From a virus (taxonomy: Duplodnaviria; Heunggongvirae; Uroviricota; Caudoviricetes), in IMG/VR virus record IMGVR_UViG_638275541_000001: 64,000 bases of DNA; one strand, 5' to 3'. The position numbers and the translations under genes were made by a program. Of the stretch, positions 1,544 to 8,025 are shown piece by piece (within the stretch, counting starts at the first letter, position 1; the number at the start of each line of letters is the position of its first letter). Under the pieces are notes generated by a model. The model made no database searches. It saw only the letters and a program-made list of their open reading frames with translations, and was not told where the DNA came from.

Positions 1544-1620
1544 CTCTGTTTAGCTCAGCTTGGTAGAGCGTTCCGTTTGGGGCGGTAAGGCCGGAGGTTC
1601 AAGTCCTCCAACAGAGACCA
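1544..1620 (+). tRNA. tRNA-Pro (anticodon TGG)
   Basis: 7-bp acceptor CTCTGTT/AACAGAG, D-arm GCTCAGCTTGGTAGAGC, anticodon loop TTTGGGG, T-arm GGAGGTTCAAGTCCTCC, encoded CCA. Confidence 0.8.
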
Positions 1621-1627
1621 AATTAAT

Positions 1628-1705
1628 GTTCCAGTAGACAAAATGGTAAAGTCACCACTCTTTCAAAGTGGATATCTGAGGGTTCAAATCCCTTCTGGAA
1701 CGCCA
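1628..1705 (+). tRNA. tRNA-Glu (anticodon TTC)
   Basis: acceptor GTTCCAG/CTGGAAC, anticodon stem CCACT/AGTGG with loop CTTTCAA, T-loop GGTTCAAATCC, 3' GCCA. Confidence 0.8.
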
Positions 1706-1716
1706 GTTTTGACAGA

Positions 1717-1783
1717 AGACCAATTACAGCAAACTTAATCTTATTCATCTGAAGGTAAATCGGACAAAGAAGAGATTTGGTCT
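1717..1783 (+). ncRNA. stem-loop element A1 of a four-member covarying family
   Basis: stem AGACCA (1717-1722) pairs TGGTCT (1778-1783); loop holds conserved TTACAGCAA; lies just after a tRNA. Confidence 0.45.
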
Positions 1784-1797
1784 GGTCATTAAGAATT

Positions 1798-1873
1798 GCG
1801 GGTATAGAGAAAGGGCGTCTCACATGTCTCATTAGCATGGTATCGGCAGGTTCGACTCCTGCACCCGCCTCCA
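1798..1873 (+). tRNA. tRNA-Met or Ile2 (anticodon CAT)
   Basis: anticodon stem CATGT/GCATG with loop CTCATTA; T-arm GCAGGTTCGACTCCTGC; CCA encoded. Confidence 0.7.
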
Positions 1874-1883
1874 AATTTACAGA

Positions 1884-1941
1884 AGACCGTTTACAGCAAT
1901 ATTTATTAAATTTTTAGCGGAAAAATTGAAAGATACGGTCT
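1884..1941 (+). ncRNA. stem-loop element A2
   Basis: stem AGACCG (1884-1889) pairs CGGTCT (1936-1941); compensatory change relative to A1; 28-nt block CAAATTTACAGAAGACCGTTTACAGCAA identical to A4. Confidence 0.45.
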
Positions 1942-1956
1942 GGTAATACTAAACAT

Positions 1957-2033
1957 GGTTAGGAAGCACATAAGGTATGTGCGGTCGCCTGTTAAGCGAA
2001 TGGCACAGGGTTCGAATCCCTGACTAACCGCCA
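1957..2033 (+). tRNA. tRNA-Asn (anticodon GTT)
   Basis: acceptor GGTTAGG, anticodon loop CTGTTAA, T-arm CAGGGTTCGAATCCCTG, CCA. Confidence 0.7.
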
Positions 2034-2102
2034 AATTTAGGAGAGAAGCGATTGCTCACCGATTTGTAAGGTGCAAGTCCTTAGCCTGAATAGAAATTAA
2101 AT

Positions 2103-2190
2103 GTGTCGTTATCCCGTAGATGGTAGCGGTGGGGACTGTAAATCCCTTGTCATTGAGACTCGGTAGGTTCGACTCCTACACGGCACACCA
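2103..2190 (+). tRNA. tRNA-Tyr (anticodon GTA), long variable arm
   Basis: anticodon stem GGGGA/TCCCT with loop CTGTAAA (identical to E. coli tRNA-Tyr loop), long variable arm, T-arm GTAGGTTCGACTCCTAC, CCA. Confidence 0.75.
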
Positions 2191-2195
2191 ATAAA

Positions 2196-2272
2196 GGCTA
2201 TGTAGTTTAACTGGAGAAAATACTCCCCTGTCACGGGAGATGATGTGAGTTCAAGTCTCATCGTAGCCGCCA
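2196..2272 (+). tRNA. tRNA-Asp (anticodon GTC)
   Basis: acceptor GGCTATG/CGTAGCC, anticodon stem CTCCC/GGGAG with loop CTGTCAC, T-arm GTGAGTTCAAGTCTCAT, GCCA. Confidence 0.75.
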
Positions 2273-2307
2273 ATTTTGAGAGGGCTATTTAGCCCCTCCC
2301 TTAAAGA

Positions 2308-2325
2308 GTTCTTACGAGTATCCTT
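2308..2325 (+). repeat. conserved 18-mer GTTCTTACGAGnnTCCTT (copy 1 of 2)
   Basis: GTTCTTACGAGTATCCTT here versus GTTCTTACGAGAGTCCTT at ~6920-6937; both flanked by (T)TAAA. Confidence 0.5.
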
Positions 2326-2337
2326 TAAAGGAGCAGA

Positions 2338-2405
2338 AGACCAAATACAGCAAGTTACTTAAAATTTCAAGCCAATTTAATTTTGAAAAATTTAAAACTT
2401 GGTCT
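2338..2405 (+). ncRNA. stem-loop element A3
   Basis: stem AGACCAA (2338-2344) pairs TTGGTCT (2399-2405); loop has ATACAGCAA and an inner AT-rich hairpin. Confidence 0.45.
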
Positions 2406-2424
2406 GGCTCAACAAATTTACAGA

Positions 2425-6088: not shown

Positions 6089-6106
6089 ATTTAAAGAGGC
6101 TATTTA

Positions 6107-6664
6107 ATGAGATATTTGAAGTATGCTTCATGGATTTTCTTAGCTTTACTAGACCCAATTGCAGCAATCCTAGCAGTTATCTTAGCACCTTTCGTAGTTC
6201 CATTCTACAGTGAGAAGAAAGGACATCTACCTTTTGGATTCAGATGGATGGAGACCTATGACAACCCAATTGATGGTGATGAAGGTCACGTTAAAAGATG
6301 GGCTAAGATTAGAAAGATTGGTAAGCTGGGTGTCTACATGCAGAGAGTCGGATGGCTCTGGAGAAACAAAGCTTATAACTTATCTTACCATGTATTAGGA
6401 AGAGATGTAAAAGATGTTACTAAGTGGAAAGGTAATATCAACGTAAGTTCTGACCCTGAAGATAATCAGACAGGTTATCTCCTAATGTGGAACAACAATG
6501 CTTGGGGATTATTCGCTTTTATTCCGTCAATTAAAATCTTTGGTAAACAGTTTTACTGGAGAATTTATGTTGGATGGAAACTAAAAAGTGTTGTCCCAAA
6601 AGAAAGAGCATTCTCAAGGGAAAGAGTTATGTTGGCATTCTTTATTCATCCACTGAGAAAGTAA
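6107..6664 (+). CDS. hypothetical membrane protein
   Basis: 185 aa; N-terminal hydrophobic segment WIFLALLDPIAAILAVILAPFVVPF; RBS AAAGAGG; sits between tRNA genes. Confidence 0.55.
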   Translation: MRYLKYASWIFLALLDPIAAILAVILAPFVVPFYSEKKGHLPFGFRWMETYDNPIDGDEGHVKRWAKIRKIGKLGVYMQRVGWLWRNKAYNLSYHVLGRDVKDVTKWKGNINVSSDPEDNQTGYLLMWNNNAWGLFAFIPSIKIFGKQFYWRIYVGWKLKSVVPKERAFSRERVMLAFFIHPLRK

Positions 6665-6672
6665 AGATTTAA

Positions 6673-6748
6673 AGGGGATTAGTTTACAAGGTTAAAACCT
6701 CGGTCTTTGAAATCGAAGAAGTTGGTTCAATTCCAACATCCCCCGCCA
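6673..6748 (+). tRNA. tRNA-Gln (anticodon TTG)
   Basis: anticodon stem TCGGT/ATCGA with loop CTTTGAA, T-arm GTTGGTTCAATTCCAAC, weak 1:72 pair, GCCA. Confidence 0.65.
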
Positions 6749-6750
6749 AT

Positions 6751-6829
6751 GCTCCATTACTCCAATTGGCAGAGAGGCCAGACTTAAAATCTGTGTTATG
6801 TATCGGTTCGAATCCGATATGGAGTACCA
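6751..6829 (+). tRNA. tRNA with anticodon TAA (Leu by anticodon), short variable arm
   Basis: acceptor GCTCCAT/ATGGAGT, anticodon stem CAGA/TCTG with loop CTTAAAA, T-arm ATCGGTTCGAATCCGAT, discriminator A, CCA. Confidence 0.6.
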
Positions 6830-6834
6830 ATTTT

Positions 6835-6910
6835 AGCGGTATAGCATAACTGGCAATGCAGCAGTCTCTGAAGCTGTCCTATTAAGGTTCAAATCCTTAT
6901 GCCGCTGCCA
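6835..6910 (+). tRNA. tRNA-Gln (anticodon CTG)
   Basis: acceptor AGCGGTA/TGCCGCT, anticodon loop CTCTGAA, T-arm TAAGGTTCAAATCCTTA, GCCA. Confidence 0.65.
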
Positions 6911-6919
6911 CTTCTAAGG

Positions 6920-6937
6920 GTTCTTACGAGAGTCCTT
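6920..6937 (+). repeat. conserved 18-mer GTTCTTACGAGnnTCCTT (copy 2), just upstream of tRNA-His
   Basis: GTTCTTACGAGAGTCCTT; 16 of 18 identical to copy at 2308-2325. Confidence 0.5.
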
Positions 6938-6941
6938 AAAT

Positions 6942-7017
6942 GTGGCCTTATCATAAATGGTAATGACCCATGCTGTGAACATGGTCTATACGGGTTCAAA
7001 TCCCGTAGGTCACCCCA
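6942..7017 (+). tRNA. tRNA-His (anticodon GTG)
   Basis: acceptor GTGGCCT/AGGTCAC, anticodon stem CCATG/CATGG with loop CTGTGAA, T-arm ACGGGTTCAAATCCCGT, discriminator C, CCA. Confidence 0.75.
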
Positions 7018-7022
7018 ATTTA

Positions 7023-7099
7023 TAGTCCAAGTAGCTTATATGGTTAAAGCGCGTGTCTGAAAAACATGAGAAGAGGGTTCAAATCCCACTGGACTACCA
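7023..7099 (+). tRNA. tRNA-Phe (anticodon GAA)
   Basis: acceptor TAGTCCA/TGGACTA, anticodon stem CGTGT/ACATG with loop CTGAAAA, T-loop GGGTTCAAATCCC; exact 3' end ambiguous by 1-2 nt. Confidence 0.65.
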
Positions 7100-7115
7100 A
7101 TTTCAAAGGTGCTTA

Positions 7116-7850
7116 ATGAAAGAGATGACAGAACAAGGTAAGGAGATTTTTAATCTCTTAAAAACCGGTAAAGGGTTTTCTAACCCACTTATTACTGGTG
7201 CAGCAGTTCTCGGTGGAACCGTAGCTGCCTCTACATCACTTGTAAGCTCTATTAGCTCTGTAACAGACCCTACAATGAAGGAGAAGCTTGTTGCTGCTGG
7301 ACTCACAACAGCCCTCCTAAACAGCTTTACAACAAGCCTGACAAGCACTACAGCAACTACTAAGACCCTAACAGACTATGGTCAAAAGTCTATTGATGAG
7401 TTTTCATCACGTATGCAGGTAGCAAAGGGGTACTCCAATGTTATGGGTGCAGCAGGAGAACAAGTTGGTTGTACACCATTCAGTGGTATTATGGGTGTTG
7501 CTACAGAGTACGGTCAGCAAGCTATTGACACTATTAACAGCACACTAGACAGTGTTAACGGTGTGTTAAGTGACTTACAAGACGCTATTGATAAGGGTCT
7601 TGCTACTGTTTCTGATTTAGCTAACCAAGCTGTCAGTAAGATTAATGAAGGTATTTCAAAGATTACAGCTTATGCAGATGAAGTTGTGCAGATGATTGAA
7701 GAAGAAGCTGCCCTTATTGCAGAGTACCTTAAAACGAATATCAATGGGTTCTTAGCAGGTATCTTACCAGACTGGTTTGATGATGCTTATAAAACTGGTG
7801 TAATTGACACTATTGCAACACCAGAAATGAAGAGCGCATTACAGAAATAA
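7116..7850 (+). CDS. hypothetical Ser/Thr/Ala-rich protein
   Basis: start moved to ATG 63 nt inside the track ORF, whose 5' part overlaps tRNA-Phe; RBS AAAGGTG. Confidence 0.5.
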   Translation: MKEMTEQGKEIFNLLKTGKGFSNPLITGAAVLGGTVAASTSLVSSISSVTDPTMKEKLVAAGLTTALLNSFTTSLTSTTATTKTLTDYGQKSIDEFSSRMQVAKGYSNVMGAAGEQVGCTPFSGIMGVATEYGQQAIDTINSTLDSVNGVLSDLQDAIDKGLATVSDLANQAVSKINEGISKITAYADEVVQMIEEEAALIAEYLKTNINGFLAGILPDWFDDAYKTGVIDTIATPEMKSALQK

Positions 7851-7852
7851 AT

Positions 7853-7945
7853 GGAAGATTAACCCTAAAAGGTAAGGGAGCAGTTTGCTAAACTGCCAGT
7901 AGCTGAGAAATCGGTGTACCAGTTCAAGTCTGGTATCTTCCTCCA
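7853..7945 (+). tRNA. tRNA-Ser (anticodon GCT), class II
   Basis: acceptor GGAAGAT/ATCTTCC, anticodon stem GCAGT/ACTGC with loop TTGCTAA, long variable arm, T-arm ACCAGTTCAAGTCTGGT, CCA. Confidence 0.7.
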
Positions 7946-7949
7946 ATCT

Positions 7950-8025
7950 GAATCCGTGACAGAAATGGATATGTGCCTGTCTGCAAAACAGGTTTATAAG
8001 GGTTCAAGTCCCTTCGGATTCTCCA
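7950..8025 (+). tRNA. tRNA-Cys (anticodon GCA)
   Basis: acceptor GAATCCG/CGGATTC, anticodon stem CCTGT/ACAGG with loop CTGCAAA, T-arm AAGGGTTCAAGTCCCTT, CCA. Confidence 0.75.

What the first reader, a model, noticed from the sequence alone, without database searches (positions are those of the whole stretch)
1544..8025. tRNA cluster covering all 20 specificities, including three Leu-anticodon tRNAs with short variable arms
By hand-folding I count about 27 tRNA or tRNA-like genes whose anticodons together cover all 20 amino acids, with Lys TTT and CTT, Gln TTG and CTG, two CAT, and Leu TAG/CAA/TAA. The three Leu-anticodon tRNAs fold as class I (variable region 4-8 nt) with discriminator A, whereas bacterial tRNA-Leu is normally class II. 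From established knowledge, large phage tRNA sets can compensate codon bias and can bypass host anticodon nucleases. Either my folds are wrong or these are noncanonical Leu tRNAs.
Basis: partly seen in the sequence, partly recalled or inferred. Interest (0 to 1): 0.5.

Follow-up and report, generated by a model that had tools for sequence, protein, structure and literature searches.

The report
Phage tRNA array with armless leucine tRNAs
This is the known tRNA gene cluster of a Felix O1-type Salmonella phage, but its three leucine tRNAs really do lack the long extra arm that bacterial leucine tRNAs normally carry, a trait that turns out to be common in phages, and the cluster also holds two oddly built tRNAs (Arg, Trp) that standard tools miss.

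Summary
The window is Salmonella phage FO1a (100% identity). ARAGORN finds 25 tRNAs between 1544 and 8025, covering 19 amino acids. Two non-canonical tRNA-like genes bring this to 27 genes and all 20 amino acids: Arg-UCU at 3796-3877 and Trp-CCA at 4378-4460.

The three Leu tRNAs (TAG, CAA, TAA) are class I. Their variable regions are 4-7 nt, against 12-15 nt in E. coli. They keep every E. coli LeuRS identity element: A73, A15:U48, G18G19 and A20a. The Ser and Tyr tRNAs keep their long arms.

This is not a local oddity. Class I Leu tRNAs occur in at least six phage families. They make up about 28% of Leu tRNAs in two IMG/VR samples and 9% in a bacterial genome sample. The cloverleaf is supported by compensatory changes in 18 of 20 base pairs.

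The most likely explanation is functional leucine tRNAs charged by host LeuRS, which does not need the arm. They serve the phage's UUA-, CUU- and CUA-rich codon usage. Charging has not been tested. E. coli LeuRS failed on a Streptomyces class I tRNALeu.

Side finding: the Arg-UCU gene belongs to a widespread phage family with a rearranged D arm, backed by strong covariation. A Ro60-like gene and Y-RNA-like elements lie in or next to the cluster.

The parts
1..1378 (+). 3' 447 codons of gp42, a Ro60-like (TROVE + vWA fold) RNA-binding protein. The gene starts just before the window.
   Evidence: Pfam DUF2828 + DUF7788. PHROG 850 'RNA-binding protein'. AlphaFold model with pLDDT 83.7. Foldseek best hits are Ro60 structures 2i91, 1yvr, 2nvo and phage phiLo 9l5y, E about 1e-8, TM 0.64.
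1488..1517 (+). Sigma-70-like promoter match (TTGACA-18-TAAAGT, with TG) just upstream of the first tRNA.
   Evidence: This is a consensus match only. Matches in the region are not enriched over shuffles.
1544..1620 (+). tRNA-Pro (TGG)
1628..1705 (+). tRNA-Glu (TTC)
1710..1788 (+). Y-RNA-like element 1: CAGAAGACC-nnn-UACAGCAA ... nnn-GGUCUGG closed by a terminal stem.
   Evidence: Sequence, fold, alignment of the four copies.
1797..1873 (+). tRNA with CAT anticodon. It has a U1.C72 mismatch and U37, and its isotype is unresolved.
   Evidence: ARAGORN. Not reported by Rfam.
1877..1946 (+). Y-RNA-like element 2
1957..2033 (+). tRNA-Asn (GTT)
2103..2190 (+). tRNA-Tyr (GTA), class II, variable arm 15 nt.
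2196..2272 (+). tRNA-Asp (GTC)
2334..2409 (+). Y-RNA-like element 3
2418..2554 (+). Y-RNA-like element 4. It contains a permuted tRNA-like module: T arm 2476-2492, closed acceptor-like stem 2493-2510, D arm 2512-2528.
   Evidence: Fold with z = -2.4. Coordinates checked. The architecture is that of YrlA.
2701..2776 (+). tRNA-Lys (TTT)
2781..2857 (+). tRNA with CAT anticodon (Met or Ile2, unresolved).
2866..3360 (+). HNH endonuclease ORF (gp43)
   Evidence: ORF list. GenBank annotation of FO1a.
3354..3429 (+). tRNA-Ile (GAT)
3796..3877 (+). Non-canonical tRNA-Arg(UCU)-like gene with a rearranged D arm. CUC 3806-3808 pairs with GAG 3835-3837 and encloses the anticodon arm 3810-3826 (anticodon 3817-3819). 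A D-loop-like UAAGUGGAG lies at 3838-3846, the T arm at 3850-3866, and the gene ends in A73 and CCA.
   Evidence: Rfam tRNA 31.7 bits. Homologs in many phage genera. At least 120 IMG/VR contigs. Covariation. Coordinates checked.
3848..4240 (+). HNH endonuclease ORF (gp44)
4378..4460 (+). Non-canonical tRNA-Trp(CCA)-like gene. A 10-nt connector (4385-4394) replaces the usual 2 nt between the acceptor and D stems. Anticodon at 4418-4420, C31.A39 mismatch, G73 and CCA.
   Evidence: Alignments. Covariation. Fold. Coordinates checked. Missed by ARAGORN and the Rfam tRNA model.
4474..4563 (+). tRNA-Ser (TGA), class II, variable arm 19 nt.
4820..4897 (+). tRNA-Leu (TAG), class I. Variable region 4-5 nt, G1.U72, A73, encoded CCA.
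4905..4980 (+). tRNA-Lys (CTT)
4987..5062 (+). tRNA-Ala (TGC)
5069..5143 (+). tRNA-Gly (TCC)
5158..5571 (+). HNH endonuclease-like ORF (gp46). It sits where Erwinia phage phiEa104 has a canonical tRNA-Trp.
   Evidence: Weak Pfam HNH match, E = 0.005. Gene order in phiEa104.
5573..5649 (+). tRNA-Thr (TGT)
5745..5819 (+). tRNA-Val (TAC)
5821..5898 (+). tRNA-Leu (CAA), class I. Variable region 5-6 nt, D arm of 3 bp plus loop CAAUUGGCAGA, A73, encoded CCA.
6013..6088 (+). tRNA-Arg (ACG)
6673..6748 (+). tRNA-Gln (TTG)
6751..6829 (+). tRNA-Leu (TAA), class I. Variable region 7 nt, G1.U72, A73, encoded CCA. At least 99% identical in 214 phage records.
6835..6910 (+). tRNA-Gln (CTG)
6942..7017 (+). 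tRNA-His (GTG)
7024..7099 (+). tRNA-Phe (GAA)
7853..7945 (+). tRNA-Ser (GCT), class II, variable arm 21 nt.
7950..8025 (+). tRNA-Cys (GCA)

Best explanation
The region is the tRNA gene array of a Felix O1-type myovirus, Salmonella phage FO1a. It supplies the infected cell with a near-complete set of decoders suited to the phage's AT-rich codon usage.

The three Leu genes encode functional elongator tRNAs that have lost the long variable arm. They keep everything that enterobacterial LeuRS is known to read: discriminator A73, the A15:U48 Levitt pair, G18G19 and A20a in a 3-bp-stem, 11-nt D arm of tRNALeu type, and a standard T loop.

Bacterial LeuRS does not need the arm, whereas SerRS and bacterial TyrRS do. 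The arm is therefore dispensable only in tRNALeu, and it has been lost repeatedly, or once with later spread, in phage tRNA arrays. The Ser and Tyr arms are retained.

The tRNAs are inferred to be charged with leucine by host LeuRS. They would read UUA and UUG (UAA, CAA) and the CUN codons (UAG). These are the codons served in the host by single-copy tRNA genes.

Shown here: the gene structures, the identity elements, conservation and covariation, the distribution across phages, and codon usage.

Inferred, not shown: expression, leucylation, and use on the ribosome.
For: - Identity of the locus: 100% match to JF461087. The Felix O1 tRNA cluster was published in 2010.
- Class I architecture: ARAGORN gives variable regions of 4, 5 and 7 nt and A73, against 12-15 nt in E. 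coli leuW, leuX, leuZ and leuQ.
- D loop: the alignment with E. coli tRNALeu shows the same AAUUGG(Y)A(R)A D loop. The only large difference is 8-11 missing variable-arm columns.
- Identity rules: the review of E. coli leucine identity lists A73, A15-U48, G18G19, A20a and D/T-loop tertiary pairs. It states that the long arm and the anticodon are not needed, and that truncated tRNALeu without the variable arm stays active.
- Isotype models: tRNAscan-SE models score Leu highest for the three orthologous tRNAs of phage Sf14, at 67.4, 49.1 and 60.2.
- Purifying selection: Leu-TAA is at least 99% identical in 214 phage records.
- Covariation: across 20 class I Leu tRNAs from nine phages, 18 of 20 cloverleaf pairs show compensatory changes.
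- Breadth: class I Leu occurs in Ounavirinae, Demerecviridae (Aeromonas AhP_Mru1, E. coli SP15), Herelleviridae (LpeD, BCU4), Kyanoviridae (P-SSM7) and Bixzunavirus.
- Frequency: in IMG/VR samples, 37 of 127 and 28 of 103 Leu tRNAs are class I, always inside multi-tRNA loci. For comparison, 2 of 89 Ser and 0 of 43 Tyr are short, and 8 of 92 Leu in a bacterial genome sample are class I; Fisher p = 1.7e-4.
- Codon usage in the window: TTA 27.5%, CTT 28.1%, CTA 12.0%, CTG 15.2%.
Against: - No experiment shows expression or charging.
- Fan et al. 2019 report that E. coli LeuRS could not leucylate the class I tRNALeu(CAA) of Streptomyces coelicolor, and they describe EcLeuRS as charging only type II tRNALeu. 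Tolerance of arm loss by the host enzyme is therefore not guaranteed.
- Leu-TAG has a poorly paired D stem.
- All phage UAG tRNAs carry A37 where the host has G37. The effect on reading-frame maintenance is unknown.
The percentages are rough.
Confidence: 0.7

Rival explanations
1. Loss of the arm is an immune-evasion adaptation. Host defence nucleases that recognise or cut the long variable arm of class II tRNAs would deplete host tRNALeu, and an armless phage tRNALeu would escape and keep translation going. This can coexist with the best explanation. It differs only on why the arm was lost.
For: Retron-Eco7 and Septu cleave E. coli tRNATyr in the variable loop, and T5 tRNATyr resists because its variable loop differs. 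The variable arm is therefore a proven target. Class I Leu is enriched in viral contigs relative to bacterial genomes and recurs in unrelated phage families.
Against: None of the papers read describes a defence nuclease that targets the tRNALeu variable arm. The phage Tyr and Ser tRNAs keep their arms. T5 and BCU4 keep class II Leu tRNAs. The pattern 'only Leu loses the arm' is explained more simply by the requirements of the synthetases.
Confidence: 0.2
2. The three RNAs are not leucine acceptors. They would be uncharged decoys or regulators, or be charged with another amino acid so that Leu codons are recoded.
For: E. coli LeuRS failed on a natural class I tRNALeu from Streptomyces. About half of the tRNAs in the related phage Sf14 score best on a non-matching isotype model, which shows these phage tRNAs are divergent.
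Against: All E. coli Leu identity elements are present. The Leu isotype model is the top score for all three orthologs. Without a long arm they cannot be SerRS or TyrRS substrates by the known rules. The same three anticodons with the same architecture recur in phages of very different hosts. The phage uses Leu codons at a normal frequency, 8%.
Confidence: 0.08
3. They are prediction artefacts or decaying pseudogenes.
For: tRNAscan-SE called two Felix O1 tRNAs 'pseudo' in 2010. The Leu Rfam scores (44-47.5 bits) are lower than those of most of their neighbours.
Against: Two independent methods agree. Sequence is near-identical across more than 200 genomes. There are compensatory changes in 18 of 20 pairs. 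All three encode CCA.
Confidence: 0.02

Closest known systems
Felix O1 tRNA gene cluster (Whichard et al. 2010, PMC3185647), with the Mooglevirus Sf14 tRNA analysis (PMC12482277)
   Same: It is the same locus: FO1a is a Felix O1 variant. The published sets contain the same Leu TAG, CAA and TAA genes, attributed to codon compensation.
   Different: Those papers list 22 and 26 tRNAs covering at most 19 amino acids. They do not mention the short variable arms; 'variable' occurs zero times in the Sf14 paper. No gene between Ile (#8) and Leu-TAG (#9), where the rearranged Arg-UCU and the Trp-like gene lie, appears in the part of the Felix O1 table that was read, and the Sf14 set lacks the Trp-like gene.
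Type I tRNALeu(CAA) of Streptomyces coelicolor (Fan et al. 2019, PMC6614811)
   Same: A class I tRNALeu coexists with class II tRNALeu and a single bacterial-type LeuRS in one cytoplasm.
   Different: The Streptomyces enzyme needs a special leucine-specific domain, and E. coli LeuRS could not charge that tRNA. Here the host is Salmonella or E. coli, all three phage isoacceptors are class I, and they carry an E. coli-type D loop.
Animal mitochondrial class I tRNALeu
   Same: Short variable loop. Identity rests on A73 and A14.
   Different: It has a dedicated mitochondrial LeuRS, a relaxed structure and a different compartment.
Engineered E. coli tRNALeu lacking the variable arm (Larkin 2002 and Asahara 1993/1998, as summarised in PMC9976931)
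   Same: These constructs show that E. coli LeuRS needs A73 and the D/T-loop core but not the long arm. That is the feature set retained here.
   Different: Those are laboratory constructs. The phage genes are natural and conserved.
T5 tRNA region
   Same: A large tRNA array interspersed with HNH homing endonucleases and stable tRNA-like RNAs of unknown function.
   Different: T5's single tRNALeu is class II at 85 nt, although its relative SP15 carries two class I Leu genes.
D-arm-lacking mitochondrial tRNASer(AGY) (for the Arg-UCU element)
   Same: There is no D hairpin between the acceptor and anticodon arms, and the anticodon helix is extended.
   Different: In the phage family a 3-bp helix formed by positions 11-13 and a segment after the anticodon arm encloses that arm. 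A D-loop-like UAAYUGGA sits in the variable-region position. The system is bacterial. A 2024 paper states that all known bacterial tRNAs are cloverleaves.
Ro60 with YrlA-type Y RNAs (Chen et al. 2014, PMC4201824)
   Same: A Ro60-fold protein gene lies next to RNAs that have a terminal stem and a permuted tRNA-like module made of a T arm, a closed acceptor stem and a D arm.
   Different: gp42 is annotated DUF2828, not TROVE. The 5' motif here is CAGAAGACC...UACAGCAA, not GNCGAAN0-1G. Only one of the four copies has the tRNA-like module. Rfam finds no Y RNA.

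Membership tests
Bacterial class II tRNALeu | Long variable arm (more than 10 nt, forming a stem-loop). | tested here: not met
   Variable regions are 4, 5 and 7 nt, against 12-15 nt in E. coli.
Bacterial class II tRNALeu | Discriminator A73. | tested here: met
   All three have A73.
Bacterial class II tRNALeu | tRNALeu-type D arm (3-bp stem, 11-nt loop with A14 A15, G18G19 and A20a) and U48. | tested here: met
   The alignment with leuW, leuX, leuZ and leuQ shows it. 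The identity list comes from the review. In Leu-TAG the D stem is weak.
Bacterial class II tRNALeu | Leu anticodon (NAG or YAA). | tested here: met
   TAG, CAA and TAA.
Class I (type I) tRNALeu, as in mitochondria and Streptomyces | Short variable loop together with a Leu anticodon and A73. | tested here: met
Class I (type I) tRNALeu, as in mitochondria and Streptomyces | Leucylated by the resident LeuRS. | not testable with these tools
   This needs aminoacylation assays. The literature conflicts.
Felix O1-type phage tRNA array | Sequence identity and gene order shared with Felixounavirus genomes. | tested here: met
   100% identity to FO1a. 36 records cover at least 80% of the region. Annotated relatives have the same order.
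Canonical cloverleaf tRNA (for the element at 3796-3877) | D hairpin between position 9 and the anticodon arm. | tested here: not met
   Only 7 nt separate the acceptor and anticodon stems.
Canonical cloverleaf tRNA (for the element at 3796-3877) | Acceptor stem, anticodon arm with U33 and a purine at 37, T arm with GTTCGA, discriminator plus CCA. | tested here: met
tRNAArg by E. coli ArgRS identity (for the element at 3796-3877) | C35 and an A20 equivalent next to G18G19. | tested here: inconclusive
   The anticodon is UCU and a GGA is present in nearly all family members. That this A acts as A20 is a structural inference. The ArgRS identity rule is recalled from general knowledge.
tRNATrp by E. 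coli TrpRS identity (for the element at 4378-4460) | CCA anticodon, G73 and A1-U72. | tested here: met
   The sequence shows all three. The identity rule is partly and partly from general knowledge. Charging is untested.
YrlA-type Y RNA with Ro60 | Adjacent Ro60 (TROVE) protein gene on the same strand. | tested here: met
   Match by fold: Foldseek against Ro60 structures, E = 8e-9. The Pfam TROVE domain is not hit.
YrlA-type Y RNA with Ro60 | Terminal helix plus a tRNA-like module (T arm, closed acceptor stem, D arm). | tested here: met
   Element 4 only.
YrlA-type Y RNA with Ro60 | Conserved GNCGAAN0-1G Ro-binding motif. | tested here: not met
   The motif is absent. The conserved sequence is CAGAAGACC...UACAGCAA.

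The most novel reading that the evidence does not exclude
Phages that infect ordinary bacteria routinely use tRNAs breaking the 'bacterial' structural rules, and FO1a carries three kinds.

(i) Armless class I tRNALeu charged by a host LeuRS that is thought to handle only class II.

(ii) A topologically rearranged tRNAArg(UCU). Its D-stem strands close around the anticodon arm, and the D-loop nucleotides (A14 to G18G19A20) follow in the variable-region position. This would preserve the L shape with a three-way junction in place of the four-way junction.

(iii) A tRNATrp with a 10-nt connector between the acceptor and D stems.

If (ii) is aminoacylated and read by the ribosome, it would be the first natural non-cloverleaf tRNA working in a bacterial translation system. 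It is present in at least 80 of the first 120 matching viral contigs sampled.
Probability: 0.45. Interest if true: 0.9.

Novelty: new variant of a known kind. Interest (0 to 1): 0.66.

Why it matters
Textbooks and recent primary papers treat the long variable arm as a hallmark of bacterial tRNALeu, and describe E. coli LeuRS as a class II-only enzyme. If the phage class I tRNALeu are charged in Salmonella and E. coli, three things follow:
- That view needs revising.
- It gives a natural test of which tRNA features LeuRS, EF-Tu, the modification enzymes and the ribosome really require.
- It offers compact Leu tRNA scaffolds for engineering.

Arm loss affects only Leu, in about a quarter of phage Leu tRNAs, and this also gives a clean evolutionary readout of synthetase constraints. 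The rearranged Arg-UCU family and the extended-connector Trp tRNA would extend this to tRNA topology itself. They also explain why phage tRNA sets look incomplete to standard annotation tools.

Tried and rejected
- Relaxed ARAGORN thresholds, with and without introns, gave only overlapping or antisense spurious calls. One example was a 'Pyl' call at 4364-4435. None of them revealed the Trp or Arg elements.
- A permissive Rfam search of 1-10000 and of 3500-4480 gave chance-level hits to miRNA, snoRNA and plastid families and weak tmRNA fragments. No Y RNA family appeared.
- The promoter and terminator scan found no more sites than shuffles give. The two good promoter matches are only leads.
- I considered whether the Leu tRNAs arose by a simple deletion from a class II ancestor in a close relative. 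T5 (class II) and SP15 (class I) carry Leu-TAG at the same place, but the sequences are too different to be a one-step deletion. Replacement by another gene lineage is more likely.
- A PDB sequence search and an NCBIfam search for gp42 found nothing. Only the fold comparison identified Ro60.
- Ten literature searches found no paper describing class I tRNALeu or D-arm-rearranged tRNAs in phages. The library lacks most subscription journals, so this is absence of evidence only.
- The anticodon-nuclease idea was not pursued further. The Lys-UUU and Tyr anticodon loops match the host's in the Sf14 analysis, and the host's nuclease set is unknown.

Full report
**What the region is.** Positions 1400-8200 are 100% identical to Salmonella phage FO1a (JF461087), a Felix O1 variant. 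More than 300 phage records share parts of the region. The Felix O1 tRNA cluster was published in 2010 with 22 tRNAs. Relatives are annotated with 25-26 tRNAs, three of them tRNA-Leu. The cluster itself is therefore already known.

**Check of the observation.** Rfam's tRNA model confirms 23 of them above its gathering score and adds one at 3796-3874. No Trp tRNA is predicted, even at relaxed thresholds.

The three Leu genes are 78, 78 and 79 nt including an encoded CCA. Their variable regions are 4, 5 and 7 nt, and the discriminator is A in all three. E. coli leuW, leuX, leuZ and leuQ, fetched for comparison, have variable arms of 12-15 nt. In the same cluster, Tyr has a 15-nt arm and the two Ser tRNAs have 19 and 21 nt.

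**Are they leucine tRNAs?** Aligned with the four E. coli isoacceptors, the phage genes share the tRNALeu-type D arm: a 3-bp stem and the loop (C/G)AAUUGG(Y)A(R)A. They also share U8, the T loop and A73. What they lack is 8-11 columns of variable arm.

A review of E. coli leucine identity names A73, the A15-U48 Levitt pair, G18G19, A20a and the D/T-loop tertiary pairs. It states that neither the anticodon nor the long arm matters, and that truncated tRNALeu without the variable arm remains active. All of these elements are present in the three phage tRNAs, including a U at the last variable position.

In the related phage Sf14, tRNAscan-SE isotype models score Leu highest for the three orthologs.

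Against this, Fan et al. 2019 found that E. coli LeuRS could not charge the class I tRNALeu(CAA) of Streptomyces coelicolor. Charging by the host enzyme is therefore likely but not shown.

**Selection.** Leu-TAA is at least 99% identical in 214 phage records. An RNAalifold analysis of 20 class I Leu tRNAs from nine phages supports the short-arm cloverleaf. Eighteen of its 20 pairs show compensatory changes, and G1.U72 occurs in 15 of the 20 sequences.

**Distribution of class I Leu.** BLAST with the FO1a genes, and then with their distant hits, led to class I Leu tRNAs (variable region 4-5 nt, A73, the same D arm) in these phages:
- Erwinia phage phiEa104 (Kolesnikvirus)
- Aeromonas phage AhP_Mru1 (Demerecviridae)
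- E. coli phage SP15 (Tequintavirus)
- Lactobacillus phage LpeD and Bacillus phage BCU4 (Herelleviridae)
- Prochlorococcus phage P-SSM7
- Mycobacterium phage Roots515

T5 itself and one BCU4 gene are class II.

For a less biased estimate I scanned IMG/VR with a pattern that matches both classes:
- IMG/VR, Leu-pattern loci: 37 of 127 Leu tRNAs in 120 loci are 73-75 nt. The rest are 78-93 nt, with nothing at 76-77 nt. All short ones lie in multi-tRNA loci.
- IMG/VR, loci picked for an unrelated reason: 28 of 103 Leu are short, against 2 of 47 Ser and 0 of 24 Tyr.
- Bacterial genomes, same pattern: 8 of 92 Leu are short, Fisher p = 1.7e-4.

**Explanation.** The arm is lost only from the one class II tRNA whose synthetase does not need it. 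The phage supplies UAA, CAA and UAG, which are single-copy isoacceptors in E. coli. The phage's Leu codons are TTA 27.5%, CTT 28.1%, CTA 12.0%, TTG 11.8%, CTG 15.2% and CTC 5.5%.

The simplest reading is that these are working Leu tRNAs charged by host LeuRS, and that arm loss is permitted by relaxed constraint.

An immune-evasion reading cannot be excluded. Retron-Eco7 and Septu cut the variable loop of tRNATyr, and T5 tRNATyr escapes through a different loop. No nuclease that targets the tRNALeu arm is known to me, and the Tyr and Ser tRNAs keep their arms.

**The 26th gene: Arg-UCU at 3796-3877.** The Rfam alignment shows an acceptor stem, then only 7 nt, a normal anticodon arm (CUUCUAA), 23 further nt, a normal T arm, A73 and CCA. 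Canonical tRNA-Arg(UCU) genes sit at the same place in Michonne and phiEa104.

Homologs at 83-90% identity occur in Klebsiella, phi92-like, jumbo E. coli, Serratia and Streptomyces phages. An IMG/VR scan for the long spacing hit the 120-locus limit, and 82 of 121 matches have the same short 5' part.

In these sequences, nucleotides 11-13 pair with the three nucleotides just before a conserved UAAYUGGA:
- In 48 sequences, 92% of cells are paired, against 29-41% in shifted registers and at most 69% in 1000 shuffles.
- In a 32-sequence alignment, all three pairs of this helix show compensatory changes. The whole structure is 97% paired, with 0 of 500 shuffles as high.

My structural reading is an inference. 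The helix stacks on the anticodon stem as the D stem normally does. The following UAAYUGGA then supplies A14, A15, G18, G19 and A20, so the L shape could be kept with a changed chain order.

AGA is 42% of the phage's Arg codons, and FO1a has no canonical Arg-UCU gene. A 2024 paper states that all known bacterial tRNAs are cloverleaves. I found no description of this family.

**The 27th gene: Trp-CCA at 4378-4460.** Its layout is AUGGGAC, a 10-nt connector, D arm CUC-UAAGGCAU-GAG, anticodon arm ACGGC-UUCCAAC-ACCGU with a C31.A39 mismatch, a 5-nt variable region, the T arm, GUCCCAU, G73 and CCA.

The bona fide tRNA-Trp of phiEa104 shares the anticodon arm, including that mismatch. Across six Ounavirinae, the stems are 98% paired, with four pairs changed on both sides and 0 of 500 shuffles as high.

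**Other content of the cluster.** Four repeats of CAGAAGACC-nnn-UACAGCAA ... nnn-GGUCUGG lie between the first tRNAs, and their inner stem nucleotides covary. The fourth repeat contains a permuted tRNA-like module, which is the YrlA Y-RNA design.

The gene just upstream, gp42, carries DUF2828 and DUF7788. Its predicted fold matches Ro60 structures. This is probably a Ro60/Y-RNA system, a known kind that is not annotated here.

Three HNH endonuclease ORFs interrupt the array. One of them sits where phiEa104 has its tRNA-Trp.

**Verdict.** The cluster is known. The class I nature of the Leu tRNAs, its spread among phages, and the two non-canonical tRNAs appear to be undescribed in the literature I could search. 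Function in translation remains to be shown.

Noticed in passing
window 3796-3877: A tRNA-Arg(UCU)-like gene without a D hairpin. A 3-bp helix (3806-3808 with 3835-3837) encloses the anticodon arm, and a D-loop-like UAAGUGGAG follows it. It belongs to a large phage family: at least 82 of 121 IMG/VR matches, plus Klebsiella, phi92-like, jumbo E. coli and Streptomyces phages. The helix is backed by strong covariation.
   Followed up: yes
window 4378-4460: A tRNA-Trp(CCA)-like gene with a conserved 10-nt connector between the acceptor and D stems and a C31.A39 mismatch. ARAGORN and Rfam miss it. Its stems covary across Ounavirinae.
   Followed up: yes
window 1-1378 and 1710-2554: gp42 (DUF2828/DUF7788) has a predicted Ro60 fold. 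Four Y-RNA-like repeats lie downstream at 1710-1788, 1877-1946, 2334-2409 and 2418-2554. The last one holds a permuted tRNA-like module of the YrlA type.
   Followed up: partly
L007 6999-7076 (Salmonella phage FG1m): The Leu(CAA) gene is a hybrid: the 5' part of Leu-CAA joined in the T arm to the 3' part of Leu-TAA. This fits a deletion by recombination between the two Leu genes, which removed Arg-ACG, gp47 and Gln-TTG. The acceptor stem now has mismatches.
   Followed up: no
window 5158-5571 compared with L015 6197-6438: Erwinia phage phiEa104 has the order Gly-Trp-Thr with a canonical tRNA-Trp. FO1a has Gly-[HNH ORF]-Thr. The homing endonuclease gene may have displaced the canonical Trp gene.
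   Followed up: partly
window 1797-1873: The first CAT-anticodon tRNA has a U1.C72 mismatch at the top of the acceptor stem, U at position 37 and discriminator U. Rfam does not report it. Its identity (initiator-like, elongator Met or Ile2) is unresolved.
   Followed up: no
IMG/VR loci such as L264, L272, L282 and L321: 24 of 121 matches to the Arg-UCU spacing pattern are a different thing. They are tRNAs with a UCU anticodon, a normal D arm and a long (22-30 nt) variable arm, so they look class II. Some have A73. Their possible amino-acid identity was not examined.
   Followed up: no
alignment A6 (20 class I Leu tRNAs): A G1.U72 wobble pair closes the acceptor stem in 15 of 20 phage class I Leu tRNAs, as in E. 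coli leuZ. All phage Leu-UAG tRNAs have A37 where E. coli leuW has G37.
   Followed up: no
L158, L191, L204, L246, L252 (bacterial genome contigs): Class I Leu tRNAs also occur in a few bacterial assemblies, including Gordonia, Herbiconiux and a Planctomycetota MAG with three in a row. Their sequences resemble the phage type (GUAGCCCAAUUGGCAGAGGC...CAGUG). Whether they lie in prophages was not checked.
   Followed up: no
L008 900-974 and 1796-1869 (Aeromonas phage AhP_Mru1): This T5-family phage carries tRNAs with CTA and TCA anticodons, annotated as suppressor tRNAs, alongside its three class I Leu tRNAs.
   Followed up: no
window 2300-2332 and 6911-6942: Two similar short inverted-repeat sequences containing GTTCTTACGAG lie between tRNA genes: cttaaagagttcttacgagtatcctttaaagg and cttctaagggttcttacgagagtccttaaatg. 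Seen in the sequence only.
   Followed up: no
L005 (E. coli metT-leuW-glnUW-metU-glnVX) compared with window 6673-6910: The phage order Gln(TTG)-Leu(TAA)-Gln(CTG) echoes the host operon in which a Leu tRNA gene adjoins Gln tRNA genes. This may be coincidence.
   Followed up: no
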